A stretch of 52,932 bases of DNA from a virus. The notes beneath the pieces are model-generated. The model saw nothing but the letters and a program-made list of their open reading frames with translations. It was not told the DNA's origin and did no database searches. The DNA lies in IMG/VR virus record IMGVR_UViG_3300045988_134091, positions 1-52,932 of that record. One strand, 5' to 3'. Position 1 is the stretch's first letter. Each line of letters opens with the position of its first letter. Positions 1 through 52,932 of this stretch are shown here, piece by piece. Both the position numbers and the translations under genes were made by a program.

Positions 1-55
1 AAGCACTCTTTTATGAGAAATATCCGCTCCCAGGGGTTCAAGGAATCAAGAGATG
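1..55. repeat. Terminal direct repeat, copy 1 (identical to 52878-52932); overlap of a circular or terminally redundant assembly
   Basis: Read directly: aagcactcttttatgagaaatatccgctcccaggggttcaaggaatcaagagatg is present at both window ends. Confidence 0.95.
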
Positions 56-1036: not shown

Positions 1037-1452
1037 ACCGTAGGGAACGCAGAAAACTGGAGCGCCAGGGGAAAATACCCAAGGCTGAGCCTGTCTATTT
1101 GATGAAGCCCTCAGACATTAAGGATGCGGCCCTGAAGGGGGCTGGTGAACAGGCTATGCTGAATGAGATTCATCAGCAGTGTTTGGCTGCAGACAAGTCA
1201 TTCACCCTTGATATGGATACCATATATCTCTGGACACTCCATAGCAAATATGGCTGGGGACTGAAACGCCTGAAACAGTTCTACAAGGAGGTGTTTGTTG
1301 AACACCGCCGTATGCGGGAGTTCTATGAGATGGATAGCACATATCCAGAGCGTTATCAACTGAAAAGCAAGGGCATAGACATTGAAGCTTGGTATAATGA
1401 GCTGTTTGATGAAGAAGGAAACTTCAAGAAGCCTGAGGAGATCAACATATGA
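1033..1452 (+). CDS. Hypothetical protein
   Basis: ORF track; RBS ggaggg upstream; start and stop both overlap the neighbouring genes. Confidence 0.55.
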   Translation: MNRRERRKLERQGKIPKAEPVYLMKPSDIKDAALKGAGEQAMLNEIHQQCLAADKSFTLDMDTIYLWTLHSKYGWGLKRLKQFYKEVFVEHRRMREFYEMDSTYPERYQLKSKGIDIEAWYNELFDEEGNFKKPEEINI

Positions 1453-3350: not shown

Positions 3351-3899
3351 ATGCTGGAAATGAACAAGGGTGATAAGGTTATTCTAAAGGGTTTCACGGG
3401 TATCAAGCTGGGTGTGTTCCCGGTTGCGAGCACCACCAAAAAGACCATCACTGTGCTGAAAAAGAATGGTGATGAGATGGTGTTCGACCGCAAGACCGGT
3501 AAGCAGGTCAATGTTGAGGAGGGCAAGGAGAAGTATGCCAACAGCATCATCCCTGATGATGGCAGCTTTGTTGCTCCTTCCACGGCTGGTGCCAAGCGCA
3601 AGTCCACCAAGAAGGCAGCCAAGGTCAAGACCAAGGTTGAGGATGAGGCTGACGAGGACGATGAGGAGGACGATGAGGACAAGGCCCCCAAGAAGTCCAA
3701 GAAGGCAGCCAAGAAGCCTGCAAAGAAGTCTGCCCCCGTTGAGGATGACGAGGACGAGTATGAAGACGATGACGAGGACGATGAGCCCGTCCCTGTCAAG
3801 AAGTCCGTAAAGAAGGGCAAGAAAGCTGCCAAGAAGGGCAAGAAAGCAGCTGCGGATGACGACGAGGACGACGATGAGTTTGAGGAAGTTGATGACTGA
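3351..3899 (+). CDS. Early protein: N-terminal FTG domain (paralogs at 45214 and 45734) plus Lys-rich/acidic block tail
   Basis: RBS aaggag upstream of ATG 3351; KGFTGIKLGVF...FDRKTGKQVN...KYANSI motif; tail made of KKAAKK and DEDDE blocks. Confidence 0.7.
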   Translation: MLEMNKGDKVILKGFTGIKLGVFPVASTTKKTITVLKKNGDEMVFDRKTGKQVNVEEGKEKYANSIIPDDGSFVAPSTAGAKRKSTKKAAKVKTKVEDEADEDDEEDDEDKAPKKSKKAAKKPAKKSAPVEDDEDEYEDDDEDDEPVPVKKSVKKGKKAAKKGKKAAADDDEDDDEFEEVDD

Positions 3900-7022: not shown

Positions 7023-8018
7023 ATGGATTTGTATCATATACCGGGTGATACAGGCGGGGACTGGAGACTGGGAAAGTTTGTTGAGTATCAACATGAAGTC
7101 CCAAGCATCCATTACCGGGTTATGGGGCACTACATTGTTGACTGGGTACCAGATCGTGATGATGCTGTCATGATGTGTTGGTATATGTCGGCTACATACA
7201 ATGAAATAACCTGTATGCTGCTACAGGAACTGTTTGATTGGAGAAGCCTGACCCCAAAAACAGTGAAGGACTATTGCCAGAGATTTTGGCAGGAAACTAA
7301 ACCTGTACTTGACTTTGGGTCATCCCGAAGGTATGCCAAGAATATGGATTGGTTTCCAACCTTGATGGAGGCTTTTATCAGAACCACACACCGTAAACCC
7401 TACTCTTGGCTGCGAGGCTTAATTCAGGGTGATCCTGTGGAAGATTACAGACGGGTATTCAGTGCAGTTTCTGCCCTCCCCTACACAGGTAGGTTTGCAG
7501 CAGACCTGTTTATGGAGTCAGTCCTGTATTTGGGTGAGTATCTGGGCATAGAACTGACTGAGCCCTCCCTGTTAAACTGGAAAAAGTGCAGCAATCTCAC
7601 TTCCGGGTTGTTGAATATCTTCTATCGTGATGAGGAAGCAAATGAGTATGACAAGACTGGGAAACTCCCTGTGTCAGAAAAGTTCCTGACCAAGAAACTT
7701 GAAACTGTTCAGAGAAAGATTGAAAAGGTTTACCCTGAACAAGACAATGACATCAACCTATTCATTGGGAAAATCTGTAGCTTCAGAAACTTATTCAAAG
7801 CAACCCGTTATGGTGGATTTCATCATGACAGAGAGCTGGGTGTGCTGAGAGAGTACGAGCATGTATTGCCTGACTTTCAATACATTTGGGATAGGGCTTT
7901 TGACCTCAGAGAACAGATGTTTGATAAGCGGTTTCTTGGAGAGTTCCATGACTGGGATGGAATACGCCCAGAAAGAAAAAAGCTATGGCTGAGAGAGGGG
8001 TTGACTGGGGTTGAGTAG
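7023..8018 (+). CDS. Divergent paralog of the 47915 DNA base hypermodification protein (aGPT-Pplase / 5-hmdU-DNA-kinase helical-domain-like)
   Basis: Same length class as 47915-48922; shared GRFAADLF/GKFLSYQIF and CSFRNLFK/CFCELSKY motif positions; stop overlaps the start of the P-loop kinase; RBS tggagg upstream of ATG 7023. Confidence 0.4.
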   Translation: MDLYHIPGDTGGDWRLGKFVEYQHEVPSIHYRVMGHYIVDWVPDRDDAVMMCWYMSATYNEITCMLLQELFDWRSLTPKTVKDYCQRFWQETKPVLDFGSSRRYAKNMDWFPTLMEAFIRTTHRKPYSWLRGLIQGDPVEDYRRVFSAVSALPYTGRFAADLFMESVLYLGEYLGIELTEPSLLNWKKCSNLTSGLLNIFYRDEEANEYDKTGKLPVSEKFLTKKLETVQRKIEKVYPEQDNDINLFIGKICSFRNLFKATRYGGFHHDRELGVLREYEHVLPDFQYIWDRAFDLREQMFDKRFLGEFHDWDGIRPERKKLWLREGLTGVE

Positions 8019-8613
8019 AGTGCTGGTCAATGTACGGGGTTGTAACGGGGCTGGGAAGTCTACCATTCCCATGTCCATGATGGATGACCCTGAAATGTAT
8101 GTACACGAGATTATGGGGAGTGACGGGAAGAAAATAAGTGCCATCACCGTCTTTCCCTCCTATGGCTGGGTTGCCTTGGGAACATACTTCAACAAAACAG
8201 GTGGCCTGGATACCCTGAAGAACAATGCAGTTACCAAGCTGACTTTGTTCGCTGCCCTTGATGGGTTTCCTGAGTATGATGTGCTCCTGGAGGGCATTAT
8301 GGCAAGCACTATTCGCTCAACTTACATTGACTTGTTCCATGAAGTTGAGGACTACTACGGGAAGAAGCAGCTGAAGGTCATCGTGGTGTCCCTTCTCCCA
8401 CCCGTAGATGTGGCACTGAGCCGTGTTTATAAGCGCAATGGGGGTAAACCCATCAATGAAGCTGCGGTGGCAGGGAAGTGGAAGACTGTGGCAAGAAATG
8501 TGGCTGAATTTGCTGATGCTGGGTTCACCTCTATCAAAGTTAATTCCGCCAAGGTTAAAAAGAAGAACATGTTGCCGGCTTTTCTCAAGACCGTGAACAA
8601 ATACAGGGGGTAA
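8011..8613 (+). CDS. P-loop kinase, candidate 5-hydroxymethylpyrimidine DNA kinase (5-HMUDK-like)
   Basis: Walker A GCNGAGKST near the N-terminus; about 200 aa; translationally coupled to the upstream hypermodification-like gene. Confidence 0.5.
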   Translation: MSRVLVNVRGCNGAGKSTIPMSMMDDPEMYVHEIMGSDGKKISAITVFPSYGWVALGTYFNKTGGLDTLKNNAVTKLTLFAALDGFPEYDVLLEGIMASTIRSTYIDLFHEVEDYYGKKQLKVIVVSLLPPVDVALSRVYKRNGGKPINEAAVAGKWKTVARNVAEFADAGFTSIKVNSAKVKKKNMLPAFLKTVNKYRG

Positions 8614-8618
8614 CAAGA

Positions 8619-8906
8619 ATGGACAAAGTTCAGATTCATAAGCAGCTGTGTGACAGCATGCATGCTTTGTATGAGAGAAAAAACGCTGACTATGGTGACT
8701 CCTTCGCTCAGCTCAGAAAGAGATACCCCAATTTTGTATGTATGAGGTTGTTTGACAAGCTCAACCGTTTAGATACCATCATTCAGCCTGGGTATGAATG
8801 CAAGGTGTCTGACGAGAAGATTGAGGACACCCTGATGGACATAGCAAATTATGCCGTCATGGAGCTGACTGAGCGGAGAGCAGAAGGAGGATTCAATGAA
8901 GATTGA
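8619..8906 (+). CDS. DUF1599 / MazG-like all-alpha NTP pyrophosphohydrolase-fold protein
   Basis: KNADYGDSF...RLFDKLNRL...EDTLMDIANYAVM signature. Confidence 0.55.
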   Translation: MDKVQIHKQLCDSMHALYERKNADYGDSFAQLRKRYPNFVCMRLFDKLNRLDTIIQPGYECKVSDEKIEDTLMDIANYAVMELTERRAEGGFNED

Positions 8907-9031: not shown

Positions 9032-9742
9032 ATGGTCACCGTATTTGAAGGAAGAACTGTAAATGACGCTTGGCTGGCTGGGTTCAATGCCCTTCAGACT
9101 CAGGCTGAGAAAGGATACACCGCTGACTCCAGAGACGGGGGTGTGGTTGGGGAGATTTGCGATGCGGTTTTCTGTATTGAAGACCCCACACGGAACATCG
9201 TGAGCAGCCCCATTCGCAAGATGCCTATGCGGTATGCTGTGGGTGAGCTGGCCTGGTATCTTTCTGGATCCAATAAGGTCAAGGACATCTCCCAGTTTGC
9301 CAAGAAGTGGGCTGACATCTCTGATGATGGCGAGACAAACAACTCTGCCTATGGTTGGAGAATCTTTGACAAGTTTGGTTTTGACCAGTGGCAGTACGTG
9401 AAGGAGCTGCTTTGGAAAGACCCCAGTAGCCGTCAAGCCGTTATCCACATCAAGGATGCAAACAATCAGCCTACCAAAGATGTACCCTGCACGGTGTATC
9501 TTCAGTTCTTCATCCGGGATGGAAAACTGAACCTGTCTACCCATATGCGCTCCAATGATATTTGGATGGGTGTACCCTATGATATGTTCAGCTTCTGCTT
9601 CCTTCAGATGTTGATGGCTATGCAGCTGGGTGTTGAGATTGGGCATTATACCCATTATGCTGGTTCTCTCCACATGTACGCCAGAGACTATGAAGCAGCC
9701 AAGAAAAACATTTCAGCGTTGCCTCAGGCATCTTCTAACTGA
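9032..9742 (+). CDS. ThyA-family deoxypyrimidylate hydroxymethylase (T4 gp42-like; Asp at the TS Asn177 position suggests dCMP)
   Basis: aggagg RBS; NNSAYGWRIF, DPSSRQAVIHI, PCTVYLQFFIRDGKL, MRSNDIWMGVPYDMF, GSLHMYARDY. Confidence 0.8.
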   Translation: MVTVFEGRTVNDAWLAGFNALQTQAEKGYTADSRDGGVVGEICDAVFCIEDPTRNIVSSPIRKMPMRYAVGELAWYLSGSNKVKDISQFAKKWADISDDGETNNSAYGWRIFDKFGFDQWQYVKELLWKDPSSRQAVIHIKDANNQPTKDVPCTVYLQFFIRDGKLNLSTHMRSNDIWMGVPYDMFSFCFLQMLMAMQLGVEIGHYTHYAGSLHMYARDYEAAKKNISALPQASSN

Positions 9743-44110: not shown

Positions 44111-44380
44111 ATGAATGCTATCAATATTGGATTGGGCAACTTTGTCTCCGCAGACCGGGTGGTTGCCATTGTGAGTCCGGAATCTGCCCCCATCAAGCGT
44201 ATGGTACAGGAGGCCAAGGACAAGGGAACGGCAGTTGATTCCACCTATGGTCGTAGAACAAGAGGGGTGTTGATTATGGATAGCGGGCAGCTTGTGCTGT
44301 CCTCTCTCCAGCCCTCTACGATTGTTGCCAAGAGCACAACAAAGAATGCCAAAGAAAAGGCGGTTGATGACGATGACTGA
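44111..44380 (+). CDS. remA: RemA (DUF370) family DNA-binding regulator homolog
   Basis: [68 protein letters not shown] matches the B. subtilis RemA pattern recalled from memory. Confidence 0.85.
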
Positions 44381-44800: not shown

Positions 44801-44806
44801 AAATAC

Positions 44807-44844
44807 AAGCCCTTGTGGAAGCTACACAGTTTCCGCAGGGGCTT
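44807..44844 (+). terminator. 14-bp hairpin immediately upstream of promoter A4
   Basis: aagcccttgtggaa / ttccgcaggggctt (includes G:U pairs), 10-nt loop, followed by gaaaattttt. Confidence 0.55.
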
Positions 44845-44875
44845 GAAAATTTTTCAACAAATTTCAAAATAATGC

Positions 44876-45213: not shown

Positions 45214-45603
45214 ATGAATTACATATACATCAACACCCGTGACAATCGTCAGTACATCCTCAACCCCATGATCACAATGGGTGAGAAGGTTTGCTTGGTT
45301 GATATGGCCAATTGTGAGGACAAGTTTGTATCCCTCAAGACCTTGAAGCGGTGGTACAGCAAAACCATTACTGAGCAGCCTGTTGTTGAACTGCGGGCCT
45401 TTACTGGTATGAAGATTGGACTATTCCGGGCTGAGCTTGCTACCAATACCAACACTCTGTATCTGTGGACCAAGCAGAACAAGCTCCTGACCTTTGACCT
45501 AGATATGGGGAATCAGACCAATGCCAAGAATCCCAAGTTTGCCAATCGCATTCACGACACATACGACTTCTTGGAAAGCTCCTTGAACTGGGTTTTGTCT
45601 TGA
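45214..45603 (+). CDS. Early protein with C-terminal FTG domain
   Basis: gaggagg RBS; RAFTGMKIGLF...FDLDMGNQTN...KFANRI. Confidence 0.65.
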   Translation: MNYIYINTRDNRQYILNPMITMGEKVCLVDMANCEDKFVSLKTLKRWYSKTITEQPVVELRAFTGMKIGLFRAELATNTNTLYLWTKQNKLLTFDLDMGNQTNAKNPKFANRIHDTYDFLESSLNWVLS

Positions 45604-45733: not shown

Positions 45734-46483
45734 ATGAAAAAGACCATCATCACCTACACCAGCCGCAAGAATGCTTCCAAGGTTTACACCCTGGTTTCCT
45801 TCGATGAGGCCAATAACACCGCTGTTCTGACTGATTCCAATGGAACTGAGCACATCATGAAGCTGACCACTCTTCGCAAGACCTTCAAGAAGTCCGTTGA
45901 GGAAGTCGAGGTTGAGGAGCCCAAGACCGAAACCGAGACTATGACCAAGCATCAGAAGAGTGCCCTGAAGAATATCCGCTGCGGATACAACTGGGTCATC
46001 GGTGGCCTGGAAAACGCCGTTCAGGATGGTGAGATGGAAGAGATGCCCGCTGTCGAGGAGATGTTTGAGGAAGTGTACGATGAGGTTACCAGCTGCACCT
46101 TTGATGAAGGTTTCGGTGATTCCCAGGCTGCTCCCATCTGCATGAAGTTCGCTGGTAAGAAGTTCATCCGTGAGCAGATTGCCAAGCTGTTCCGGGCTGA
46201 TGGTTATGAGGTGTCTGAGGAACTGGTTGCTGTTCCTGAGCACAAGACTGGTCACAGCAACTTTGTAGATGGTGAGCGCATCAATCTCCGCAAGGATGAG
46301 GGCGAGAGAGTGGTCAAGGTCAGAGCCTTCACGGGTATGCTGATTGGGACATTCAAGGTGGAGAAGGAAACCAAGACCACCATCACCGTCAAGACTGCCA
46401 AAGGAAAGATGAAGTTTGATCGAGAAACTGGAATCCAGGTTAACTCGAACAACAAGAAGTTCGCCAACCGCATCGAAGTCTGA
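45734..46483 (+). CDS. Early protein with C-terminal FTG domain
   Basis: aaaggag lies upstream of ATG 45734; RAFTGMLIGTF...FDRETGIQVN...KFANRI. Confidence 0.65.
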   Translation: MKKTIITYTSRKNASKVYTLVSFDEANNTAVLTDSNGTEHIMKLTTLRKTFKKSVEEVEVEEPKTETETMTKHQKSALKNIRCGYNWVIGGLENAVQDGEMEEMPAVEEMFEEVYDEVTSCTFDEGFGDSQAAPICMKFAGKKFIREQIAKLFRADGYEVSEELVAVPEHKTGHSNFVDGERINLRKDEGERVVKVRAFTGMLIGTFKVEKETKTTITVKTAKGKMKFDRETGIQVNSNNKKFANRIEV

Positions 46484-46625: not shown

Positions 46626-46666
46626 ATATGCATGAGGCTGAATGGCCAGAAAAGGAGGTATCACCA

Positions 46667-47245
46667 GTGAAACAGTATCTGTTATCGGAGGAAGATCGCA
46701 AGAAGGACTTGTTGGAGCTGCTTGAAAAGAACAATGTTCCGCTTGAGTTGTTCCCGTATGAGTGGTTGTGTACCACAGATTTCTTCAGAGCACCTGCTTC
46801 AAAAGGATTCCACGCAGCATATCCGGGGGGATTGTATGACCACTGTGTAAATGTCACTTCCCAGCTCTTGGATATGAGAGACAAGGGAGTGACGCAAACT
46901 TGGGGCCGGGTTGAAAGCCCAATTATTGTGGGCATGCTACACGATGTCACAAAGATCGGTATGTACATCCTGAGTCAAGACATGAACCCAATCAAGCAGG
47001 GGATTGAAACATTTCACATCAAAAACCCTCTGTACAGCGGCTTTGGTGGACATGGGTATGATTCAGTATGCAAGATTGAACAGCACATGAGGCTGACAGA
47101 AGAGGAACGGTTGTGTATCAGATACCATATGGGTGCCTATGAGACAGATGATTGGAGCGGGTATGATAGAGCAATCAGAAAGTTTCCAAATGTACTCTGG
47201 ACACACACCGCTGATATGTTGGCCTCCAAACTGATGGAGGATTGA
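46667..47245 (+). CDS. HD-domain phosphohydrolase
   Basis: aaaggagg lies 8 nt upstream of GTG 46667; FHAAYPGGLYDHCVNV and MLHDVTKIG (H...HD) motifs. Confidence 0.65.
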   Translation: MKQYLLSEEDRKKDLLELLEKNNVPLELFPYEWLCTTDFFRAPASKGFHAAYPGGLYDHCVNVTSQLLDMRDKGVTQTWGRVESPIIVGMLHDVTKIGMYILSQDMNPIKQGIETFHIKNPLYSGFGGHGYDSVCKIEQHMRLTEEERLCIRYHMGAYETDDWSGYDRAIRKFPNVLWTHTADMLASKLMED

Positions 47246-47249
47246 AACA

Positions 47250-47918
47250 ATGGTTCTATACTCTGGGAACAAGGGGAAACCTCTCAAGAAAAGACACTCC
47301 AACCCGTACTGCATATTTTTCTTTATCTGCTGTGTGCTTCTGATGGCCTCAGTACTGTTGAATGTGAAGGCCATTAACCTGCTCAGGGCCTCTGTGGAAC
47401 AAACCAAACAGGCTATCTCTGTGGCAGAGGATGCACAGACGATTGCAAACCAGGCTGTGTACAATATGAGAACCACAAAATACCCTGAGCTTGAGCCTGA
47501 GTTATGCTGTGACAAGGAAGCCTATGTGGACTCTGTAGCGGCAGAATACCTGGCCAATGTTGCTTGGGGCGAGGCTCGTGGTTGCTCTGTGACAGAACAG
47601 GCAGCTGTTATGTGGTGTGTACTCAACAGAGTGGATAGCCCTTTGTACCCAGATTCTGTAGGGGAGGTTGTTACACAGAGGGCTCAATTTAATGGATATT
47701 CTGCAAGCAACCCGATTACTCCAGAGTTACTCCAGTTGGCTAATGATGTGTTGACCTATTGGTCTAAGGAGGATGACTCTGGCCGGGTTTTGCCAAAAGA
47801 ATATCTGTATTTCATCGGGGATGGTAAACATAACTATTTTTATAAAACATGGGGTGGCAATGCAACAGCTTGGGATTGGAGCTTGCCCAGCCCTTATAAG
47901 GAGGATACGATAAAATGA
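47250..47918 (+). CDS. SleB/CwlJ-family cell wall hydrolase with N-terminal signal-anchor TM
   Basis: YCIFFFICCVLLMASVLL TM; NVAWGEARGCSVTEQAAVMWCVLNRV...QRAQFNGY. Confidence 0.75.
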   Translation: MVLYSGNKGKPLKKRHSNPYCIFFFICCVLLMASVLLNVKAINLLRASVEQTKQAISVAEDAQTIANQAVYNMRTTKYPELEPELCCDKEAYVDSVAAEYLANVAWGEARGCSVTEQAAVMWCVLNRVDSPLYPDSVGEVVTQRAQFNGYSASNPITPELLQLANDVLTYWSKEDDSGRVLPKEYLYFIGDGKHNYFYKTWGGNATAWDWSLPSPYKEDTIK

Positions 47919-48922
47919 GAACCAAGCCTGCAGATACCCTGTATTGCGGAGTAGACAAGGAGCGCATCAAGAAAGCTAAACCTGTGCTGAATGAGCGCAA
48001 TCTTTTGTACCTGTACAATTTTATCAAGCGAAGATATGTCATCCACTTGAGAAAGGATGTTTTGAAGAAAGACCCACCCTGGACCAATGACCAAGTGCTG
48101 CGGAATTTCCGGTTCACCAACATTCGCCGAGAGCATGACAAGGAGAGCAAGTGGGTGATTGAGCACATCGCCAATAACCCTGAGCTGTCTTATGAGGACA
48201 AACTGCTCAATGCCATCCTTTTTCGGCTTTACAACAAGCATGAAACCGCTGAGCTGATTTCCATGCCGATCAAGTTCAGCCAAACCCCTGACTGGAATCC
48301 TGAGTGGTACAGAAGTCTGTTTGAAGCTGCTCTGGCTGAAGATCCTCATGTGAAGTTCTTTACTGGTGCATTTAACACCGGAGGCCTGAAGCGCGCCTTG
48401 AAATGGTATCTTCCCAAGGATGACCCAAAAAACAGTATGCCCATGAGGGTGCTTTGGTTTATCCAGTATCTTATTGGGGAAGACATCGTTGGTCAAGTGA
48501 AGAGCTGTACCAGACAAGATGAAGTATGTAATACATTGTCATCTTATATGGGTCTTGGGAAATTCCTTTCCTACCAGATTTTTGTTGATATGACTTATAT
48601 CAAGGAGTTTCCATTCTCTGAGAATGAGTACACACAGGCTGGCCCCGGCTGCGTTATGGGCCTCGACTATCTGTTTGAAGACAGAGATGGGATGACCTAT
48701 GAGGAATGTCTGTTTTGGCTGAGGGATAACCTGGACAGGCTGTTTGTGGAGGAGCTGGGAAAAGACTGGGATGCCAAACGGGTATTCTGGGATTTGCCTG
48801 AAGAAGACAGGTGCTTCAATGTTATGTCCCTGGAAAATTGCTTCTGCGAGTTGTCAAAGTACATCCGAGCCAAGGATGGAACAGGCAGACCTCGGAAAAA
48901 GTACAATGGTGGTGGAAGATGA
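47915..48922 (+). CDS. DNA base hypermodification protein family (aGPT-Pplase / 5-hmdU-DNA-kinase helical-domain-like)
   Basis: PPWTNDQVLRNFRFTNIRREHDKESKW signature plus GKFLSYQIFVDMTY...GPGCVMGL and ENCFCELSKY, recalled from phage thymidine-hypermodification genes. Confidence 0.55.
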   Translation: MRTKPADTLYCGVDKERIKKAKPVLNERNLLYLYNFIKRRYVIHLRKDVLKKDPPWTNDQVLRNFRFTNIRREHDKESKWVIEHIANNPELSYEDKLLNAILFRLYNKHETAELISMPIKFSQTPDWNPEWYRSLFEAALAEDPHVKFFTGAFNTGGLKRALKWYLPKDDPKNSMPMRVLWFIQYLIGEDIVGQVKSCTRQDEVCNTLSSYMGLGKFLSYQIFVDMTYIKEFPFSENEYTQAGPGCVMGLDYLFEDRDGMTYEECLFWLRDNLDRLFVEELGKDWDAKRVFWDLPEEDRCFNVMSLENCFCELSKYIRAKDGTGRPRKKYNGGGR

Positions 48923-49737
48923 TTCCTGTATTTGTACCATCCTATCAGAGACCTGACGCTGTATTTTTGAAGAGGAGTGTTCTGTACAAGTTTCCTCTAT
49001 ACGTGTTCATTCGCAAAGAAGAGAAAAGTGAATACGAGTGGCTGAAATGTCGCCCTGAAACAACCTTGGTTTTACTTAAGAATGTGGAAAACATTGGAGA
49101 AACCAGACGAGCAATGTTCAATTATGCTGTCAAGAAAGGAATTGACAAAGTTTTCATGATTGATGATGATGTTTCTCGGTTAGACATATCCGTGTGGGAT
49201 GAGGAAAGAGAAGTAGTTCGTGCTTCTGGAACAGTCAAAGGGAAACCTGAGGATTGGAGAAAGGCTCTGACCAAATGGGAGACCGAATGGGAAAATGAAG
49301 CCCTATTTGGTGCATCCTATCGCCCATTCAGCTGGTCTATGAAGAAAGAAGTGTTTGGAGGGAAAAGTCGGGCACAACTACAACAAGCTGTTGGTGTGAA
49401 TATTGCTCTTCTCAACTCTGCCGGCCTCAACTACCAAAGCAATTCTGTAGTTGGTAATGAAGATCTGTTTCTTCAACTGGAGTGCTATCAACATGGACTT
49501 GAGTGCCTAAAGACTTCTATGGTTCAGTATGACTGCCCAGCAATGGGTTCCGGTACAGGAGGATGCAACTCATCAGAATTGGGAACAATACAAGAAAAAC
49601 AAGAAGTCCGGGTAGAACGATTTTGTCGTGCTTGTACTGAGCCCTCTTTGATTCGTGTTGGCCAAACTCGTTCTGGCGTAAAGAGTGTGAAATTTGTTTG
49701 GTCACAAATTTCAAGATTGATGGAGGATACAAAATAA
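48919..49737 (+). CDS. GT-A-fold glycosyltransferase-like protein (TET/JBP-associated-glycosyltransferase-like)
   Basis: N-terminal IPVFVPSYQRPD strand; FMIDDDV (DxD); ATGA overlap with the upstream gene. Confidence 0.5.
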   Translation: MIPVFVPSYQRPDAVFLKRSVLYKFPLYVFIRKEEKSEYEWLKCRPETTLVLLKNVENIGETRRAMFNYAVKKGIDKVFMIDDDVSRLDISVWDEEREVVRASGTVKGKPEDWRKALTKWETEWENEALFGASYRPFSWSMKKEVFGGKSRAQLQQAVGVNIALLNSAGLNYQSNSVVGNEDLFLQLECYQHGLECLKTSMVQYDCPAMGSGTGGCNSSELGTIQEKQEVRVERFCRACTEPSLIRVGQTRSGVKSVKFVWSQISRLMEDTK

Positions 49738-50228
49738 TGAGTAAATTGAAAAGCCTGTGTCGGAAAGACTGTCTGGATATGGCTCAGTCCTATGCTGACA
49801 AAGTCAGTGGGTGTAGAAAAGTGGCAGTGGGTTCTGCCATTGTGAGTGCTGAGGGGAATGTTATTGCTATGGGGGCCAACCGGGCTGTGCCTGACTTGTG
49901 TAAAACACCCCGTGGATGCCTCCGTGTGGAAAAATATGGGGAGGATAGCAAGAATCACAGAAACCCTGAAGACTGCCGTGCAATTCACAGCGAGATTGAT
50001 GCCATTTGTAGTGCAGCCTCTTCTGGTGTGCCTGTAAAGGGTTCTTCCATTTTTGTAACCAGATACCCATGCGAGGGTTGTGCCAAAGCCATTATTGCTG
50101 CTGGTATCAAGAAGGTGTACTATGGTGGGACAGCCCATATAAGCCCGCAGACGGCAGTTATGTTCAGGGCCTTTGGTGTGGATTGTACCTATATCTCAGA
50201 CTGGAAGGAAGACAATAGTGATAGATGA
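49737..50228 (+). CDS. dCMP deaminase (ComEB/T4 Cd-like)
   Basis: CRAIHSEIDAI (HxE) and RYPCEGCAKAI (PCxxC); ggagg RBS; TAATG overlap. Confidence 0.85.
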   Translation: MSKLKSLCRKDCLDMAQSYADKVSGCRKVAVGSAIVSAEGNVIAMGANRAVPDLCKTPRGCLRVEKYGEDSKNHRNPEDCRAIHSEIDAICSAASSGVPVKGSSIFVTRYPCEGCAKAIIAAGIKKVYYGGTAHISPQTAVMFRAFGVDCTYISDWKEDNSDR

Positions 50229-50320
50229 GCCAGTTTCGGCTGAGTAGAATGGCCAGGGTGCCATTTTAAGTGTTCGGAGGTATAAACTACCCACCCCCAT
50301 ATAAGGAAGGAGAAAAGTGT

Positions 50321-50656
50321 ATGGAAAACACTGAACAGTTAGTTCTGCCCACTCTGCCTGTTACGCCTATATTGACCGAAGAAACCTGTACCAAATTGGT
50401 AGAGGCTTTTCAGGCCATTGGAGATGCTATTGTAAAAGCGTTTGAGCCTGTAGTATTGGCTATATCTGAGGTTGTAAATAGCCTGGTTATCCCCGTAGTA
50501 CAGGAGCTGATGAAAAAGCTGTTCAAGATTGCATCACCTTCCAAAGTGTATTATTTGGCATATCATGGAAAGAAGCGTCGAACAAGAAAGAAAAATCTGA
50601 AACGCTTGATGCGTTATTGGGAGGAATTCATCAATGGATGTTACAAGGTTCATTAA
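50321..50656 (+). CDS. Hypothetical protein with basic C-terminus
   Basis: ggaaggag lies upstream of ATG 50321, inside track ORF 50270-50656. Confidence 0.5.
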   Translation: MENTEQLVLPTLPVTPILTEETCTKLVEAFQAIGDAIVKAFEPVVLAISEVVNSLVIPVVQELMKKLFKIASPSKVYYLAYHGKKRRTRKKNLKRLMRYWEEFINGCYKVH

Positions 50657-51050
50657 CAAAAAGCAGCGGGAAGTTCTGGCAAGGGCAAGAAAAACTTATG
50701 GGGACACTGCCCAAATTCTGGTGTCTACGGAAGAACTGTGTGAGCTGGCTGCGGTCTGTTCCAAATACCCCCGGTACCAGACCAAGGAAAAGGCTCAGGA
50801 TGAGCTTCATGACAAGGCTGTAGATGAGGTTGCAGATGTCCTAATTGTACTTGACCATGTCATCAATATTTTTGGTTTGACTCCGGTTGATATTGGGGAC
50901 AGGATTGCTGGGAAGGTTGCCCGTCTGGAAAGATGGCTCAATACATCTAACAGCATGGAACAGACCACGGTAGACAGAAAGGTTCCTGGTCAGCTTCACA
51001 TCACAGAAATGTGCCAGGGAGGTTTGTTTGAGCCGATTGAGGAGGAATGA
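50634..51050 (+). CDS. MazG-like nucleoside triphosphate pyrophosphohydrolase
   Basis: EELCELAA...DEVADVLIVLDHV EExxE/D-type helices. Confidence 0.65.
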   Translation: MDVTRFINKKQREVLARARKTYGDTAQILVSTEELCELAAVCSKYPRYQTKEKAQDELHDKAVDEVADVLIVLDHVINIFGLTPVDIGDRIAGKVARLERWLNTSNSMEQTTVDRKVPGQLHITEMCQGGLFEPIEEE

Positions 51051-51053
51051 CGC

Positions 51054-52932
51054 ATGAAGCTGAGTGAGTTTGACTCTCTCATTGGTCAAGACAGCTATGT
51101 GCGTTGTATGGGAAAGAAGCGGTTGGACAACTCCATCGTGAACGAAAAGGCCGCAGACGCTCACCTGTTCTCTGGGGGACAGATTGGCTGGTGGGTGCGG
51201 TCTGGCTACATAGTTGTAGATATAGATGAAGGAAAAGAAGAAGCCATGAAAGTGGTGAAGAGGCTGGGTCTCAAAACTCTGATGGCTCAGACTCCAAAAG
51301 GGCTTCATCTGTATTTCAAATGTGATAAGGAATACCCCCAGCGGGTTGGAATGGTTCTCCCTTGTGGATTGAAATGTGACTTTCGCTGTGCCAATAAGGG
51401 TTATGTCATATTGCCTTTTGGGTCAGAGGGTCGCCGGTTCAATAAGTGCAGAAAGATTGCAGAGCTGCCACCTGAGTTTACACCGATGGTGAACCGCAAA
51501 GAAAGCCTGTTGGGGTTGAAAGATGGGGATGGAAGAAATGCAACCCTGTTTGCTCACCTTATGGCCTACAAGAACAGAGGTGCTTCAGATGAGCAGATTG
51601 AGGAAATGGCTGATGTTATCAACAGTATCATATTCGCTGACCCTATGGATGAGAAGGAACTGGAGAAAATTGTTGAGAACACCAGGAAATATGAGGCATC
51701 AAAGCAGTTCGACAACCCCTATCTGATTTACAGTGCAAAAGGAGTCCCCACAAATATCAACCATAGGGCTATCTGTGACTACTTTGTGAACAAAGGGGGC
51801 ATCTTTGTACTAGGCGGGGAGTGCTATCAATACCGGGATGGCGTGTATGTTGAAGCAAGCAGCCATGTCCGGAATACCATCAAGGATATGATTGTTGTGG
51901 ATACGCTTATCACACAAAATCGTATCATGGAGTGCTTCAGGTTGATTTGTGATGATGTGAGGCTTCAGCGGACTGCAGCCGAACTGAACCATGACAAAAA
52001 CCTTATCAATTTCCAGAACGGGGTTTGGGATATAGAACGAGGAGAGCTTTTGCCTCATGACAGCAAGTATCTCCAGACGCTTCAAATTCCGCACCCGGTT
52101 GGAGAGTATAAGCCATTCAAGGAAACCCGGCTGTATGACTTTTTCAAGAAAACCAACCTGCCCAAAGAGGACATCAAGATGCTGCTCAAATACATGGCCT
52201 ATTGTCTCACCTTGGACTACGGGTTGAAGACATTCATGATTCTCTGCGGTCAGTCCAATACCGGTAAATCTGTGTTGATTCGATTCTTTGAAAACCTTGT
52301 TGGCAAGCAAAATGTGTCCTCTCTGAGCATGCATGAGCTGAATATGCGGTTCTACCCATCCCAGCTGTACAATAGGTTACTGAACTCTTGTGCAGATAAC
52401 TCATCTTTGCCATTGTCATCTATTGAAAACCTGAAGAAGATTACAGGCGGTGACCAGATTATGCATGAGAAGAAGGGCAAGGAACCATTTTTCTTTGTGC
52501 CGTTCTGTAAGTTGATTTTTAGTTTCAACCAGTTACCGCTTCAGCTGGAAGAAAAGTCCAATGCATTCTACAAGCGCATGAGGATTCTGTTCATGAACAA
52601 TGAGTTGTTTTTGAACAATGACTATGTAAATGACCTATGTAGTGAGGAGAGTGTATCTGAGATTATTCCATACCTGCTTCATCTTCTGCCAGTGAAAGAC
52701 ATCCCTCGTACATCGACCAGTGACAAGTATGTGGAGGCACTGCGGCAGGATTCTGACAGCATCCACGCCTTCATTGCTAAACATTGTGAGCTGGGACCAG
52801 GGTTGTCTGTAGAGAAAAATGCACTATATGAGGCATACTGCCGGTTTTGTGTGGATACGGGCCGGGAAAACAGCAAAAAGCACTCTTTTATGAGAAATAT
52901 CCGCTCCCAGGGGTTCAAGGAATCAAGAGATG
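51054..52932 (+). CDS. Bifunctional prim-pol / D5-like SF3 helicase (continues to 105 across the junction)
   Basis: No stop before the window end; YIVVDIDEG and TPKGLHLYF (prim-pol); LCGQSNTGKS Walker A; LIFSFNQLP (SF3 motif). Confidence 0.85.
   Translation, partial: MKLSEFDSLIGQDSYVRCMGKKRLDNSIVNEKAADAHLFSGGQIGWWVRSGYIVVDIDEGKEEAMKVVKRLGLKTLMAQTPKGLHLYFKCDKEYPQRVGMVLPCGLKCDFRCANKGYVILPFGSEGRRFNKCRKIAELPPEFTPMVNRKESLLGLKDGDGRNATLFAHLMAYKNRGASDEQIEEMADVINSIIFADPMDEKELEKIVENTRKYEASKQFDNPYLIYSAKGVPTNINHRAICDYFVNKGGIFVLGGECYQYRDGVYVEASSHVRNTIKDMIVVDTLITQNRIMECFRLICDDVRLQRTAAELNHDKNLINFQNGVWDIERGELLPHDSKYLQTLQIPHPVGEYKPFKETRLYDFFKKTNLPKEDIKMLLKYMAYCLTLDYGLKTFMILCGQSNTGKSVLIRFFENLVGKQNVSSLSMHELNMRFYPSQLYNRLLNSCADNSSLPLSSIENLKKITGGDQIMHEKKGKEPFFFVPFCKLIFSFNQLPLQLEEKSNAFYKRMRILFMNNELFLNNDYVNDLCSEESVSEIIPYLLHLLPVKDIPRTSTSDKYVEALRQDSDSIHAFIAKHCELGPGLSVEKNALYEAYCRFCVDTGRENSKKHSFMRNIRSQGFKESRD
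52878..52932. repeat. Terminal direct repeat, copy 2 (identical to 1-55)
   Basis: Exact 55-nt match to the window start. Confidence 0.95.

What the first reader, a model, noticed from the sequence alone, without database searches (positions are those of the whole stretch)
46667..51050. Pyrimidine hypermodification locus II: HD, hypermodification protein, GT-A glycosyltransferase, dCMP deaminase, MazG
Five of the seven ORFs in this interval fit a modified-nucleotide pathway:
- an HD phosphohydrolase
- a protein with the FRFTNIRREHDK signature I associate with aGPT-Pplase / 5-hmdU-kinase-helical-domain proteins
- a translationally coupled GT-A-like glycosyltransferase (PSYQRPD...FMIDDDV)
- a dCMP deaminase coupled to it
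- a MazG pyrophosphohydrolase

The hypermodification gene, the glycosyltransferase and the deaminase are coupled through ATGA and TAATG overlaps, which argues for co-expression as one pathway. A sugar-transfer step alongside kinase/pyrophosphorylase-type chemistry would be unusual.

On the circular map, loci I and II bracket the replication genes (primase-helicase, DNA polymerase, nuclease, ATPase, DUF669 protein), forming one replication-plus-modification supermodule.
Basis: partly seen in the sequence, partly recalled or inferred. Interest (0 to 1): 0.8.

Follow-up and report, generated by a model that had tools for sequence, protein, structure and literature searches.

The report
Phage DNA sugar-tagging gene cluster
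This stretch of a 53-kb phage genome encodes half of a system that replaces a normal DNA pyrimidine with a hydroxymethylated one and then decorates it, probably with a sugar. The gene families are known, but this combination has not been characterised experimentally.

Summary
The interval 46628-51050 holds an HD phosphohydrolase, a SleB-type hydrolase, a 335-aa HMUDK_hel protein (Pfam 1.8e-63), a TAGT-family GT-A glycosyltransferase, a dCMP deaminase, an unknown ORF and a MazG-like gene. The ATGA/ATGA/TAATG overlaps are as described.

The window is a complete circular genome, 52,877 bp plus a 55-nt assembly overlap. Locus II therefore runs through the primase-helicase and PolA into locus I, which holds an AADT-like protein, a P-loop 5-hydroxymethyl-base DNA kinase, DUF1599 and a ThyA homolog.

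Three points change the picture:
- The hel protein is the counterpart of Salmonella phage ViI gp160, an orphan paralog of amino-acid:DNA transferases. It keeps their E-x-x-x-C catalytic motif.
- The ThyA homolog carries the dCMP-hydroxymethylase signature, not the dUMP one. The starting base is therefore probably 5-hmC.
- In 19 related contigs hel is always present. TAGT (17/19) and kinase+AADT-like (14/19) are optional cassettes, and no contig lacks both.

Best reading: a hydroxymethylpyrimidine hypermodification system in which TAGT adds sugar after replication. The product is unknown. I rate it a new variant of a known kind.

The parts
46628..47245 (+). HD-domain metal-dependent phosphohydrolase. 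Presumed nucleotide-pool enzyme: removes the canonical dNTP/dNMP that the modified base replaces.
   Evidence: phrog_28876 3.7e-20 and phrog_5889 5e-26. No Pfam family above its cut-off. No PDB sequence match. Conserved upstream of hel in relatives at 38-95% identity.
47250..47918 (+). SleB-type cell-wall hydrolase with an N-terminal hydrophobic segment. It is embedded in the operon but is not a nucleotide-pathway gene.
   Evidence: PF07486 2e-10; phrog_30550 3e-52. Its stop overlaps the hel start as ATGA.
47915..48922 (+). Stand-alone HMUDK_hel protein. It is the counterpart of Salmonella phage ViI gp160 and a paralog of amino-acid:DNA transferases. Motif E307-N308-x-x-C311-E312.
   Evidence: PF18723 1.8e-63. 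36% identity, E 1e-72 to ViI orf00160, which itself matches PF18723 at 4e-83. AF2 pLDDT 96.1, all-helical. Foldseek top PDB hit is 8z2m PUGT, but weak (E 0.18). N308, C311, E312 and K315 are at least 90% conserved in 81 diverse homologs. hhalign against the AADT-like family gives E 3.7e-4 with the motifs in register.
48919..49737 (+). TAGT-family GT-A glycosyltransferase, a presumed DNA glycosyltransferase. R63, D82-D83-D84, E181-D182. Optional cassette.
   Evidence: PF20691 6.2e-10, above its cut-off. AF2 pLDDT 92.4. GT-A hits in the PDB at E about 1e-6. BFVD TAGT proteins at TM 0.7-0.98, including beta-glucosyl-HMC-alpha-glucosyltransferase at TM 0.71. DDD invariant. Replaced by a small membrane-protein gene in relative L007.
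49737..50228 (+). dCMP deaminase (zinc deaminase fold). TAATG-coupled to TAGT.
   Evidence: PF00383 1.4e-16; phrog_174 5.5e-30. Found after hel or TAGT in nearly all lineage relatives.
50321..50656 (+). Unknown 111-aa protein. Overlaps the MazG start by 23 nt.
   Evidence: Only phrog_17847 (unknown function) 5e-6. No Pfam match.
50634..51050 (+). MazG-like all-alpha NTP pyrophosphohydrolase. Presumed to clear the canonical dNTP.
   Evidence: phrog_2245 3.7e-12. Weak match to YpjD, 2gta, E 0.03. Conserved after the deaminase in relatives.
51054..52932 (+). Primase-helicase (642 aa). It continues across the circular junction to window position 105 and links locus II to locus I.
   Evidence: Translation across the junction. 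The relative L003 has D5_N/DUF5906 at the same place.
7023..8018 (+). Divergent AADT-like protein. Cys252 is conserved but the E-T metal dyad is absent. Fused to the kinase in some relatives.
   Evidence: No Pfam hit itself. Chain of homology window to L038 (4e-36) to L035 (2e-11) and onward. 6 of 10 family members hit PF18724 ADDT and 2 hit aGPT-Pplase3. About 530-aa fusions with PF18748 occur in relatives.
8011..8613 (+). P-loop kinase of the 5-hmdU DNA kinase family. TTG start; Walker A GCNGAGKST. Overlaps the AADT-like stop by 8 nt.
   Evidence: PF18748 1.2e-17. The P-loop lies upstream of ATG 8071. Always co-present with the AADT-like gene (14/14 contigs).
8619..8906 (+). DUF1599 ('nucleotide modification associated domain 1') protein.
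   Evidence: PF07659 3.1e-10. Conserved next to the ThyA homolog in most relatives.
9032..9742 (+). ThyA homolog with a dCMP-hydroxymethylase signature: E. coli L143->D, D169 kept, N177->D.
   Evidence: PF00303 7.6e-29. Best PDB match is the CMP hydroxymethylase MilA, 5b6d, 6.8e-34, against about 1e-20 for true thymidylate synthases. D/D/D in all 27 relatives. Diagnostic residues are taken from PMC13326640.
10105..10497 (+). HAD-type phosphatase. Possible nucleotidase; role inferred only.
   Evidence: NF046079 1.7e-28, below its cut-off; phrog_24386 3e-34.
52878..52932 (.). 55-nt repeat of window positions 1-55. This is an assembly overlap that marks a circular contig.
   Evidence: Exact terminal identity.

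Best explanation
Locus II is the upstream half of one early-gene module that makes and decorates a 5-hydroxymethylpyrimidine in the phage's DNA.

Before replication:
- The ThyA homolog in locus I hydroxymethylates a pyrimidine mononucleotide. Its specificity residues point to dCMP, giving 5-hmdCMP.
- MazG, HD and probably DUF1599/HAD destroy the competing canonical nucleotide.
- The dCMP deaminase either feeds dUMP to thymidylate synthesis, as T4 cd does, or converts part of the 5-hmdCMP to 5-hmdUMP.
- The phage PolA then incorporates the hydroxymethylated base.

After replication:
- The TAGT-family GT-A enzyme transfers a sugar from a nucleotide-sugar to the hydroxymethyl group. T2/T6 TAGT-family enzymes, phage TET-associated GTs and the trypanosome base-J glucosyltransferase act this way.
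- The ViI-gp160-like hel protein, a helical paralog of amino-acid:DNA transferases that keeps their E-x-x-x-C active-site motif, flips out and acts on the same base.
- In genomes that carry them, the kinase and the AADT-like protein provide a second, phosphate-activated substitution route.

What is shown: the gene identities, folds, motifs, coupling and co-variation. What is inferred: the substrates, the order of steps and the final chemical structure.
For: - Family and fold assignments.
- Translational coupling of hel, TAGT and deaminase.
- The genome is circular, so both loci form one + strand module.
- ThyA homolog: Asp at the E. coli N177 and L143 positions, Asp169 retained, identical in 27 relatives. 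T-even gp42 shares the Asp at N177, whereas the Kuttervirus enzyme has Asn there. The meaning of these residues comes from PMC13326640.
- TAGT carries the R...DDD...ED motif described for phage DNA GT-A enzymes and JGT. It superposes at TM 0.71 on a T-even-type beta-glucosyl-HMC-alpha-glucosyltransferase model.
- TAGT-like genes sit next to hel (this lineage), next to the kinase (L038, L117, L118, L130-132), and within 2 kb of hel and a D-type ThyA homolog in Microbacterium phage WilliamStrong.
- Census of 19 contigs: hel 19/19, TAGT 17/19, kinase+AADT-like 14/19, none with hel alone.
- hel is homologous to AADTs with the catalytic motif in register. It occurs fused to the kinase in either order.
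Against: - No chemistry was measured. The sugar, the acceptor base and even whether the DNA is modified are all inferred.
- The kinase, hel and AADT families are experimentally known only from thymidine (5-hmdU) pathways. That clashes with the dCMP-type ThyA signature.
- The window's hel is closer to the 5-hmdU phage ViI protein (36-39% identity) than to the Microbacterium one (26%).
- The Foldseek link of hel to PUGT is weak (E 0.18, TM about 0.3) and the hhalign probability is only 36%.
- ViI gp160 is not listed among the enzymes used to reconstitute 5-NeOmdU in Lee 2021. The family may therefore not be catalytic in the way proposed.
- No phage dNMP kinase was found in the window to phosphorylate 5-hmdCMP (searches gave no such hit).
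- Two close relatives lack TAGT entirely, so glycosylation is not essential to the system.
Confidence: 0.6

Rival explanations
1. Canonical thymidine route. The deaminase supplies dUMP and the ThyA homolog makes 5-hmdUMP despite its Asp residues, so the DNA carries 5-hmdU. The kinase makes 5-PmdU. The AADT-like and/or hel proteins substitute the phosphate. TAGT either glucosylates the remaining 5-hmdU (a base-J-like product) or glycosylates a hydroxyl on the appended group.
For: - Kinase PF18748.
- hel is the ViI gp160 counterpart.
- AADT-like family link and kinase fusions.
- A dCMP deaminase is a standard part of the 5-hmdU pathway (PMC8989533).
- A JGT precedent exists for GT-A transfer to 5-hmU.
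- YerA41 has glycosylated thymidines, and its relative RP13 carries an aGPT-Pplase gene.
Against: - Asp at the N177-equivalent position is the published determinant of cytosine specificity.
- All ThyA homologs that sit beside canonical AADT-kinase-hel clusters, and the Kuttervirus enzyme, have Asn there.
- The best PDB match is a CMP hydroxymethylase.
- The window's AADT-like protein lacks the essential E-T metal dyad.
Confidence: 0.22
2. Two-base variant. The ThyA homolog makes 5-hmdCMP and the co-transcribed deaminase converts part of it to 5-hmdUMP. The DNA then carries both 5-hmC (glycosylated by TAGT) and 5-hmU (processed by kinase, AADT-like and hel).
For: - It reconciles the D-type ThyA signature with the thymidine-type kinase, hel and AADT families.
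- It explains why the deaminase is a fixed core gene between hel/TAGT and MazG in the lineage.
- From my own knowledge, not tested here: dCMP deaminases from other sources tolerate 5-substituted dCMP.
Against: - I found no precedent in phages for this route.
- Five contigs keep the deaminase but lack the kinase and AADT-like genes.
- Microbacterium phage WilliamStrong has hel, TAGT and a D-type ThyA homolog with no detectable deaminase.
Confidence: 0.2
3. The glycosyltransferase is not a DNA enzyme. It would modify a host or phage glycan (teichoic acid, capsule or a protein) and only happens to lie in the early operon.
For: - The top PDB structural neighbours are cell-envelope or protein GT-A enzymes: RmlT, chondroitin polymerase and COLGALT1.
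- A cell-wall hydrolase gene sits two genes upstream.
- The gene is dispensable in close relatives.
Against: - It matches Pfam TAGT above the cut-off.
- Viral structural neighbours are TAGT proteins, including a T-even-type DNA glucosyltransferase at TM 0.71.
- No signal peptide or TM segment is visible in the sequence or the model.
- It is translationally coupled to hel and to the deaminase.
- TAGT-like genes recur beside hel, the kinase and ThyA homologs in three different arrangements.
Confidence: 0.06
4. The hel protein is a non-catalytic DNA-binding or base-flipping adaptor for the kinase. On this view it is the kinase's detached helical domain, not an enzyme.
For: - Pfam names it the helical domain of the 5-hmdU DNA kinase.
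- Fusions with the kinase occur in both orders.
- ViI gp160 is not among the enzymes listed for 5-NeOmdU synthesis.
Against: - Five related contigs and the Microbacterium phage have hel but no detectable kinase.
- [E/Q]-N-x-x-C-E-x-x-K is the most conserved stretch of the family. It aligns in register with the catalytic E-[ST]-x-x-C of AADTs.
Confidence: 0.12

Closest known systems
T-even phage 5-hmC glucosylation pathway: gp42 dCMP hydroxymethylase, dCTPase, cd dCMP deaminase, and the T2/T6 beta-glucosyl-HMC-alpha-glucosyltransferase of the TAGT family
   Same: - ThyA homolog with Asp at the N177-equivalent position, as in gp42.
- A dCMP deaminase and an NTP pyrophosphohydrolase are present.
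- The GT-A enzyme is in the same Pfam family, with a TM 0.71 structural match.
- In RB7 the TAGT-family gene lies next to gene 42.
   Different: - No dNMP kinase, thymidylate synthase or GT-B alpha/beta-glucosyltransferase was found here.
- The T-even TAGT-family enzyme adds a second glucose to an already glucosylated base, whereas here it is the only GT.
- This genome adds hel, a base kinase and an AADT-like protein, which T-even phages lack.
- The genome is a small 53-kb phage with a PolA, from metagenomes. The closest cultured ThyA relative infects Agathobaculum.
Thymidine hypermodification pathway of ViI, M6, PaMx11, PhiW-14 and SP10: dUMP hydroxymethylase, 5-HMUDK, AADT/aGPT-Pplase2, and the second paralog such as ViI gp160 (PMC5889632, PMC8989533, PMC11472151, PMC13458397)
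   Same: - P-loop kinase of the same Pfam family.
- hel is the full-length counterpart of ViI gp160.
- A second glycosylase-like paralog is linked to the AADT family. This reproduces the 'paralogous pair' noted for these phages.
- Deaminase and MazG neighbours occur here, as in ViI, where gp160 lies next to a MazG-like gene.
   Different: - The ThyA homolog is dCMP-type, not dUMP-type.
- There is no PLP decarboxylase, radical-SAM, FAD or acetyltransferase tailoring gene. The only tailoring enzyme is a glycosyltransferase.
- The AADT-like protein lacks the essential E-T dyad.
- The kinase/AADT pair is optional while hel is constant.
Base J synthesis in kinetoplastids (JBP hydroxylases plus the GT-A glucosyltransferase JGT), and phage 5mYOX/TET-associated GT-A pathways (PMC8256090; bioRxiv 10.1101/2023.12.21.572611; PMC13229309)
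   Same: A GT-A enzyme of the TAGT/JGT type with the R...DDD...ED motif is placed beside the enzyme that creates the 5-hydroxymethyl acceptor. Mining in the cited work already noted GT-A genes with ThyA homologs and dCMP deaminases.
   Different: - The acceptor here is made before replication by a ThyA homolog, not by a dioxygenase acting on DNA. No 5mYOX or C5-methyltransferase turned up among the + strand module ORFs scanned in the window.
- The full text of the GT-mining preprint never mentions a kinase, so the co-occurrence with hel, kinase and AADT-like genes is not described there.
Glycosylated thymidine of phages SP-15 and YerA41 (PMC5977210; bioRxiv 10.1101/2025.03.26.645540)
   Same: Sugars are attached to a C5-substituted pyrimidine. 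An aGPT-Pplase-type gene is present in relatives such as RP13, and those genomes carry a dCTP deaminase, a dUTP-cleaving enzyme and a ThyA homolog.
   Different: Those are large jumbo-type phages with a long linker and several sugars, and with sugar-nucleotide and teichoic-acid-like genes. Nothing of that kind is in this window. Sequence relatedness to them was not tested.

Membership tests
TAGT (PF20691, TET-associated / DNA GT-A glycosyltransferases) | Match to the family profile above the curated cut-off | tested here: met
   39.8 bits against a cut-off of 27.5, E 6.2e-10, profile positions 1-189 of 205. All close homologs carry PF20691.
TAGT (PF20691, TET-associated / DNA GT-A glycosyltransferases) | GT-A (single Rossmann-like) fold | tested here: met
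   AF2 pLDDT 92.4, pTM 0.91. GT-A enzymes in the PDB at E about 1e-6. BFVD TAGT proteins at TM 0.68-0.98.
TAGT (PF20691, TET-associated / DNA GT-A glycosyltransferases) | R...DDD...ED[Y/F] active-site motif shared by phage DNA GT-A enzymes and JGT | tested here: met
   R63, D82-D83-D84 and E181-D182 are invariant in 32 homologs. The residue after ED is Leu, followed by Phe.
TAGT (PF20691, TET-associated / DNA GT-A glycosyltransferases) | Genomic association with an enzyme that makes a 5-hydroxymethylpyrimidine | tested here: met
   A ThyA homolog lies in the same + strand module. In Microbacterium phage WilliamStrong the two genes are within 1.3 kb.
TAGT (PF20691, TET-associated / DNA GT-A glycosyltransferases) | Transfers sugar to a base in DNA | not testable with these tools
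   Needs an enzyme assay or nucleoside mass spectrometry.
HMUDK_hel (PF18723) / ViI gp160 family | Profile match and full-length similarity to ViI gp160 | tested here: met
   215 bits, 1.8e-63. 36% identity over the whole length, E 1e-72. ViI orf00160 matches PF18723 at 4e-83.
HMUDK_hel (PF18723) / ViI gp160 family | Fusion or adjacency to a P-loop 5-hmdU DNA kinase | tested here: not met
   Here the kinase gene is about 12 kb downstream on the circle. Five related contigs have hel with no detectable kinase. Fusions do exist elsewhere (L025, phrog_800). The name describes one architecture of the family, not this protein.
Amino-acid:DNA transferase (AADT, aGPT-Pplase2, PF18724), considered for hel 47915-48922 | Profile match to PF18724 | tested here: not met
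   Only PF18723 is reported at E up to 0.01. hhalign against an AADT-like alignment gives E 3.7e-4, probability 36%.
Amino-acid:DNA transferase (AADT, aGPT-Pplase2, PF18724), considered for hel 47915-48922 | Catalytic Cys with a metal-binding E-T dyad four residues upstream (E-T-x-x-C) | tested here: inconclusive
   hel has E307-N308-x-x-C311, so Asn stands in place of Thr. N308 and C311 are at least 90% conserved, and position 307 is E or Q across the family. The motif aligns in register. Structural superposition on 8z2n was not possible.
Amino-acid:DNA transferase (AADT, aGPT-Pplase2, PF18724), considered for hel 47915-48922 | Helical two-lobed fold of PUGT / YuA Pplase2 | tested here: inconclusive
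   8z2m is the first of 350,542 chains, but at E 0.18 and TM 0.27-0.30. Next come the HhH glycosylases AGOG, AlkA and Ogg.
Amino-acid:DNA transferase (AADT, PF18724), considered for 7023-8018 | Profile match, and the E-T-x-x-C motif | tested here: not met
   No Pfam hit at E up to 1. Cys252 is invariant, but the E-T positions are Ile-Gly in this subfamily. It is related only through intermediates. I file it as AADT-like, not as an AADT.
5-hmdU DNA kinase (PF18748), for 8011-8613 | Profile match and an intact Walker A motif | tested here: met
   64.6 bits against a cut-off of 27. GCNGAGKST is present when the TTG start at 8011 is used. Substrate (5-hmU, 5-hmC or a nucleotide) was not tested.
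dCMP hydroxymethylase (T4 gp42 / MilA type ThyA homologs), for 9032-9742 | Catalytic Cys146; N177->D (cytosine); L143->D/E (hydroxymethyl product); D169 retained (not a 5-hydroxy-dCMP synthase) | tested here: met
   C153, D150, D176 and D184 of the window protein fall in those alignment columns. The same holds in 27 relatives. The criteria come from PMC13326640. Activity was not tested.
dUMP hydroxymethylase (SPO1 / ViI type), for 9032-9742 | Asn at the E. coli N177 position | tested here: not met
   It is Asp here. Asn is found in the Kuttervirus enzyme and in 14 ThyA homologs beside canonical clusters.

The most novel reading that the evidence does not exclude
The system hypermodifies cytosine rather than, or as well as, thymine. 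On this reading the 5-hmdU-type kinase, the AADT-like protein and the gp160-like hel protein act on 5-hmC in DNA. The hel protein would be a phosphate-independent C6-attacking transferase that works with the glycosyltransferase, which would explain why it persists in kinase-less genomes. The product would be a glycosylated, and possibly amino-substituted, 5-methylcytosine derivative of a kind not yet described, carried by a widespread group of about 50-kb phages seen in many metagenomes.
Probability: 0.25. Interest if true: 0.85.

Novelty: new variant of a known kind. Interest (0 to 1): 0.64.

Why it matters
Phage DNA hypermodifications decide which restriction, CRISPR and type IV defence systems a phage can escape. 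They have also supplied enzymes for DNA labelling.

Every family in this locus is known. Three things are not settled by published work:
- **The gp160/HMUDK_hel family.** What it does is unknown, although it is present in hundreds of sequenced phages, including all Ackermannviridae sampled.
- **The kinase/transferase chemistry.** It is not known whether this chemistry is confined to thymine.
- **The glycosyltransferase.** It is not known what product forms when a glycosyltransferase is the only tailoring enzyme.

This lineage offers natural knock-outs that make these questions directly testable. Some genomes have TAGT only, some have kinase+AADT-like only, and some have both. If the dCMP-type ThyA signature holds, the lineage would also be the first case of thymidine-pathway enzymes associated with a 5-hmC precursor.

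Tried and rejected
- **blastn against 50,697 phage records.** It found only a 174-bp, 68% match, so there is no annotated close relative to lean on.
- **Sequence searches of the PDB.** hel, TAGT, HD, and the profiles of hel and the AADT-like family gave nothing significant.
- **Iyer et al. 2013.** This is the source of the TAGT, aGPT-Pplase and HMUDK names, but the paper is not held. Its content is cited only through later papers.
- **hel versus the single 7023-8018 sequence.** BLASTP and hhalign showed no usable similarity. The link appeared only with family alignments.
- **The search for related loci with the TAGT alignment.** It returned only 15 near relatives, so a broad census of TAGT neighbourhoods was not obtained.
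- **Microbacterium phage gp45 ('AAA-ATPase').** I tested it as a possible base kinase and rejected it. It aligns only over the P-loop, whose motif looks dTMP-kinase-like to me.
- **Genes just downstream of distant hel homologs (L133, L135).** They did not match a TAGT HMM and gave only sub-threshold glycosyltransferase hints.
- **Cluster look-ups.** They gave no source names or hosts.
- **Promoter and terminator scans.** They were not clearly above shuffled expectation and were not used.
- **First kinase alignment.** It used the ATG at 8071 and wrongly suggested a missing P-loop. This was corrected.

Full report
**Observation.**
- 46628-47245 is an HD-type metal-dependent phosphohydrolase (phrog_28876 3.7e-20).
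- 47250-47918 is a SleB-type cell-wall hydrolase (PF07486 2e-10).
- 47915-48922 matches PF18723 HMUDK_hel (1.8e-63).
- 48919-49737 matches PF20691 TAGT (6.2e-10, above the curated cut-off).
- 49737-50228 is a dCMP deaminase (PF00383 1.4e-16).
- 50321-50656 has no assignable function.
- 50634-51050 is MazG-like (phrog_2245 3.7e-12).

The quoted peptide motifs are present. The junctions read ATGA at 47915, ATGA at 48919 and TAATG at 49735-49739.

**Genome context.** The first and last 55 nt of the window are identical. After removing the repeat, the ORF that starts at 51054 reads through the junction and ends at position 105. It is a 642-aa primase-helicase. The window is therefore a complete circular genome of 52,877 bp.

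Locus II runs without a change of strand into the following genes:
- PolA (1449-3155), a PD-(D/E)XK nuclease, an AAA_24 ATPase and DUF669.
- A 331-aa protein (7023-8018).
- A P-loop kinase of the 5-hmdU DNA kinase family (PF18748 1.2e-17).
- DUF1599.
- A ThyA homolog (9032-9742, PF00303 7.6e-29).
- A HAD phosphatase and an SNF2 helicase.

The kinase gene must start at TTG 8011. The ATG at 8071 would cut off the Walker A motif GCNGAGKST. A 40-kb metagenomic relative shows the same order as one uninterrupted stretch: HD, hel, TAGT, deaminase, MazG, primase, PolA, nuclease, AAA_24, DUF669.

**The hel protein.** tblastn finds full-length homologs in 488 phage records, mostly Ackermannviridae.
- The ViI copy is orf00160 (Vi01_130c), next to a MazG-like gene. 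It is 36% identical to the window protein (E 1e-72) and matches PF18723 at 4e-83.
- This is the 'gp160' of Lee et al. 2018. It was classed there as a DNA-glycosylase-like paralog of gp247 and included in the five-lysate reconstitution.
- The 2021 study attributes the chemistry to the kinase, gp247 and gp226, and assigns gp160 no function.
- A search of 1.84 billion representatives gives 3,017 clusters at E up to 0.001, mostly stand-alone proteins of 300-400 aa.
- In 81 diverse members, R40 and D75 are invariant and N308, C311, E312 and K315 are at least 90% conserved. The most conserved stretch is [EQ]-N-x-[FML]-C-E-[FLI]-x-K-[YFL].
- The AlphaFold model is all-helical (pLDDT 96.1).
- Its first Foldseek hit among 350,542 PDB chains is PaMx11 gp46/PUGT, the 5-PmdU glycinyltransferase. 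The scores are weak (E 0.18, TM 0.27-0.30). The next hits are AGOG, AlkA and Ogg glycosylases.
- In PUGT and in the Acinetobacter phage Pplase2, the catalytic Cys lies four residues after an essential metal-binding Glu-Thr pair. hel has E307-N308-x-x-C311.
- A profile-profile alignment of hel with the AADT-like family is collinear over 228 columns (E 3.7e-4, probability 36%) and puts the two motifs in register.
- hel domains are fused to the kinase in both orders elsewhere (phrog_800 and the 615-aa L025 protein).

**The glycosyltransferase.** The model is confident (pLDDT 92.4).
- It matches GT-A enzymes in the PDB at E about 1e-6.
- In the viral structure library it matches TAGT-domain proteins at TM 0.68-0.98. 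These include a beta-glucosyl-HMC-alpha-glucosyltransferase at TM 0.71.
- R63, D82-D84 and E181-D182 are invariant in 32 homologs. They correspond to the R...DDD...ED[Y/F] motif that Pyle et al. describe for phage DNA GT-A enzymes and the base-J glucosyltransferase.

**Locus I partners.** The 7023-8018 protein has no Pfam match.
- It is related to L038 at 4e-36, and L038 to L035 at 2e-11.
- Of the ten family members collected, six match PF18724 (amino acid:DNA transferase) and two match aGPT-Pplase3.
- In relatives the subfamily is fused to the PF18748 kinase as proteins of about 530 aa.
- It keeps an invariant Cys252 but has Ile-Gly where other members have the Glu-Ser/Thr pair. I call it AADT-like, not an AADT.

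The ThyA homolog gave the main surprise.
- Its best PDB match is the CMP hydroxymethylase MilA (6.8e-34), against about 1e-20 for true thymidylate synthases.
- In alignments with E. coli ThyA it has Asp at the N177 position, Asp at the L143 position, and keeps Asp169.
- According to Lee et al. 2026, N177D marks dCMP substrates, L143D/E marks hydroxymethyl products, and D169N marks 5-hydroxy-dCMP synthases.
- T-even gp42 shares the Asp at N177.
- The Kuttervirus enzyme has Asn, and that genus is experimentally a 5-hmdU phage group. So do 14 ThyA homologs lying beside canonical AADT-kinase-hel clusters.
- All 27 lineage relatives are D/D/D.
- The ThyA homologs of Microbacterium phage WilliamStrong, Agathobaculum phage AB434P2 and L039 also have Asp at N177.

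**Comparative genomics.** Eighty hel-centred loci and 27 ThyA-centred loci from IMG/VR were compared. An HMM census was then made over 19 contigs for which both regions were held.
- hel is present in 19/19 contigs.
- TAGT or a TAGT-like gene is present in 17/19.
- The kinase and the AADT-like gene are present in 14/19, and always together.
- Twelve contigs have both modules, five have only TAGT, two have only kinase+AADT-like, and none has hel alone.

The census covers only the sampled parts of each contig, and the contigs are related, so these counts are descriptive.

Further points from the comparison:
- In relative L007 (hel 91% identical), homology to the window stops at 48905 and resumes at 49732. 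The TAGT gene is replaced by about 188 nt encoding a small membrane protein. TAGT is therefore a gene-sized cassette.
- In more distant relatives the slot holds small zinc-ribbon, Spo0A_C-like or SleB-like ORFs and no alternative enzyme.
- A divergent TAGT-like gene follows the kinase in L038, L117, L118 and L130-132.
- Microbacterium phage WilliamStrong has hel (gp52), a D-type ThyA homolog (gp49), TAGT (gp46), a P-loop protein (gp45) whose motif looks dTMP-kinase-like to me, and MazG (gp43) within 5 kb. No kinase of the PF18748 type, AADT-like gene or deaminase was detected.
- In another group of phages, hel sits immediately upstream of an N-type ThyA homolog, often as AADT-kinase-hel-ThyA.

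**How it most likely works.**

Shown:
- The gene families, folds, conserved motifs and coupling.
- The constant core (HD, hel, deaminase, MazG and the D-type ThyA homolog, with DUF1599 in most relatives).
- The two optional tailoring cassettes.

Inferred:
- The ThyA homolog makes 5-hmdCMP.
- MazG, HD and perhaps DUF1599/HAD remove the competing canonical nucleotide.
- The deaminase either feeds thymidylate synthesis, as in T4, or converts some 5-hmdCMP to 5-hmdUMP.
- PolA incorporates the modified nucleotide.
- TAGT glycosylates the hydroxymethyl group on DNA.
- hel flips out the same base and attacks it through Cys311.
- The kinase and the AADT-like protein supply a phosphate-activated substitution route where present.

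I put 0.6 on this general scheme. Any specific product deserves much less.

**Rivals.**
- Canonical thymidine route (0.22). It fits the kinase, hel and AADT families but contradicts the ThyA residues.
- Two-base variant (0.20). It reconciles both sets of evidence but has no precedent that I could find.
- Non-DNA role for the glycosyltransferase (0.06). The family, the structural neighbours and three independent gene arrangements argue against it.
- Purely adaptor role for hel (0.12). It is hard to square with the kinase-less genomes and the conserved catalytic-type motif.

**Relation to what is known.** Each component belongs to a described family.
- GT-A genes near ThyA homologs and dCMP deaminases were already counted in metavirome mining.
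- Glycosylated thymidines occur in SP-15 and YerA41.
- I found no report of a TAGT gene coupled to a gp160-type hel gene.
- I found no report of the kinase/AADT families together with a dCMP-type ThyA homolog.
- I found no assigned function for the hel family. 'glycosyltransferase' and 'helical domain' are absent from Lee et al. 2021, and 'kinase' is absent from the GT-mining preprint.

I therefore rate it a new variant of a known kind, of moderate to high interest. This lineage is common in metagenomes: hundreds of near-identical clusters on contigs of about 50 kb. It also provides natural variants that would let the open points be tested.

**Limits.**
- No experiment was possible.
- The host is unknown. 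The closest cultured ThyA relative infects Agathobaculum, and the RemA-like and SleB-type genes suggest, to my knowledge of those families, a Firmicutes host.
- The hel-AADT relationship rests on weak structural and profile scores plus a motif.
- The specificity call for the ThyA homolog rests on published diagnostic residues, not on an assay.

Noticed in passing
window 1-55 and 52878-52932: Exact 55-nt terminal repeat. The window is a circular assembly of 52,877 bp, and the primase-helicase ORF (51054 to 105) spans the junction.
   Followed up: yes
window 9032-9742: The ThyA homolog has Asp at the E. coli L143 and N177 positions and keeps Asp169. This is the dCMP-hydroxymethylase signature, not the dUMP one. 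It is conserved in 27 relatives.
   Followed up: yes
window 8011-8613: The kinase gene starts at TTG 8011. An ATG-only gene call at 8071 removes the Walker A motif. The gene overlaps the stop of the upstream AADT-like gene by 8 nt.
   Followed up: yes
window 7023-8018: An AADT-like protein with no Pfam match. It keeps the family Cys but lacks the Glu-Ser/Thr pair, and it is fused to the kinase in some relatives (about 530-aa proteins).
   Followed up: partly
window 3351-3899, 45214-45603, 45734-46483: Three ORFs of unknown function share a motif, roughly FTG-x-x-[IL]-G-x-F, followed in the latter two by K-[FK]-F-A-N-R-I. They look like paralogs of a small phage domain.
   Followed up: no
window 47250-47918: A SleB-type cell-wall hydrolase with a hydrophobic N-terminus sits inside the nucleotide-metabolism operon and is ATGA-coupled to hel. 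In relative L014 a similar gene lies between hel and TAGT.
   Followed up: partly
window 44111-44380: RemA-like protein (PF04025, 1.7e-31), a homolog of a Firmicutes biofilm regulator, encoded by the phage.
   Followed up: no
L007 8992-9178 (versus window 48906-49731): In a relative with a 91% identical hel, the TAGT gene is replaced exactly by a short gene for a membrane protein of about 60 aa.
   Followed up: yes
L135 514-11195 (Logan SRR34064822): A distant hel homolog lies in a cluster with GATase_6, ADDT (PF18724), LMWPc and HMUD2 (PF18747). The cluster also has several ORFs with GT-A-like N-termini or sub-threshold glycosyltransferase hits. It may be another sugar-plus-transferase pathway.
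   Followed up: partly
L001 (Microbacterium phage WilliamStrong) 3328-8719: Annotated hypothetical proteins gp52 and gp46 are HMUDK_hel and TAGT members. They lie beside a D-type ThyA homolog, a P-loop protein with a dTMP-kinase-like motif, and MazG. This cultured phage group probably has modified DNA.
   Followed up: partly
window 44806-44845: An 18-bp-stem hairpin followed by a T-run on the + strand, upstream of the block of small early genes. It is a likely terminator or regulatory element.
   Followed up: no
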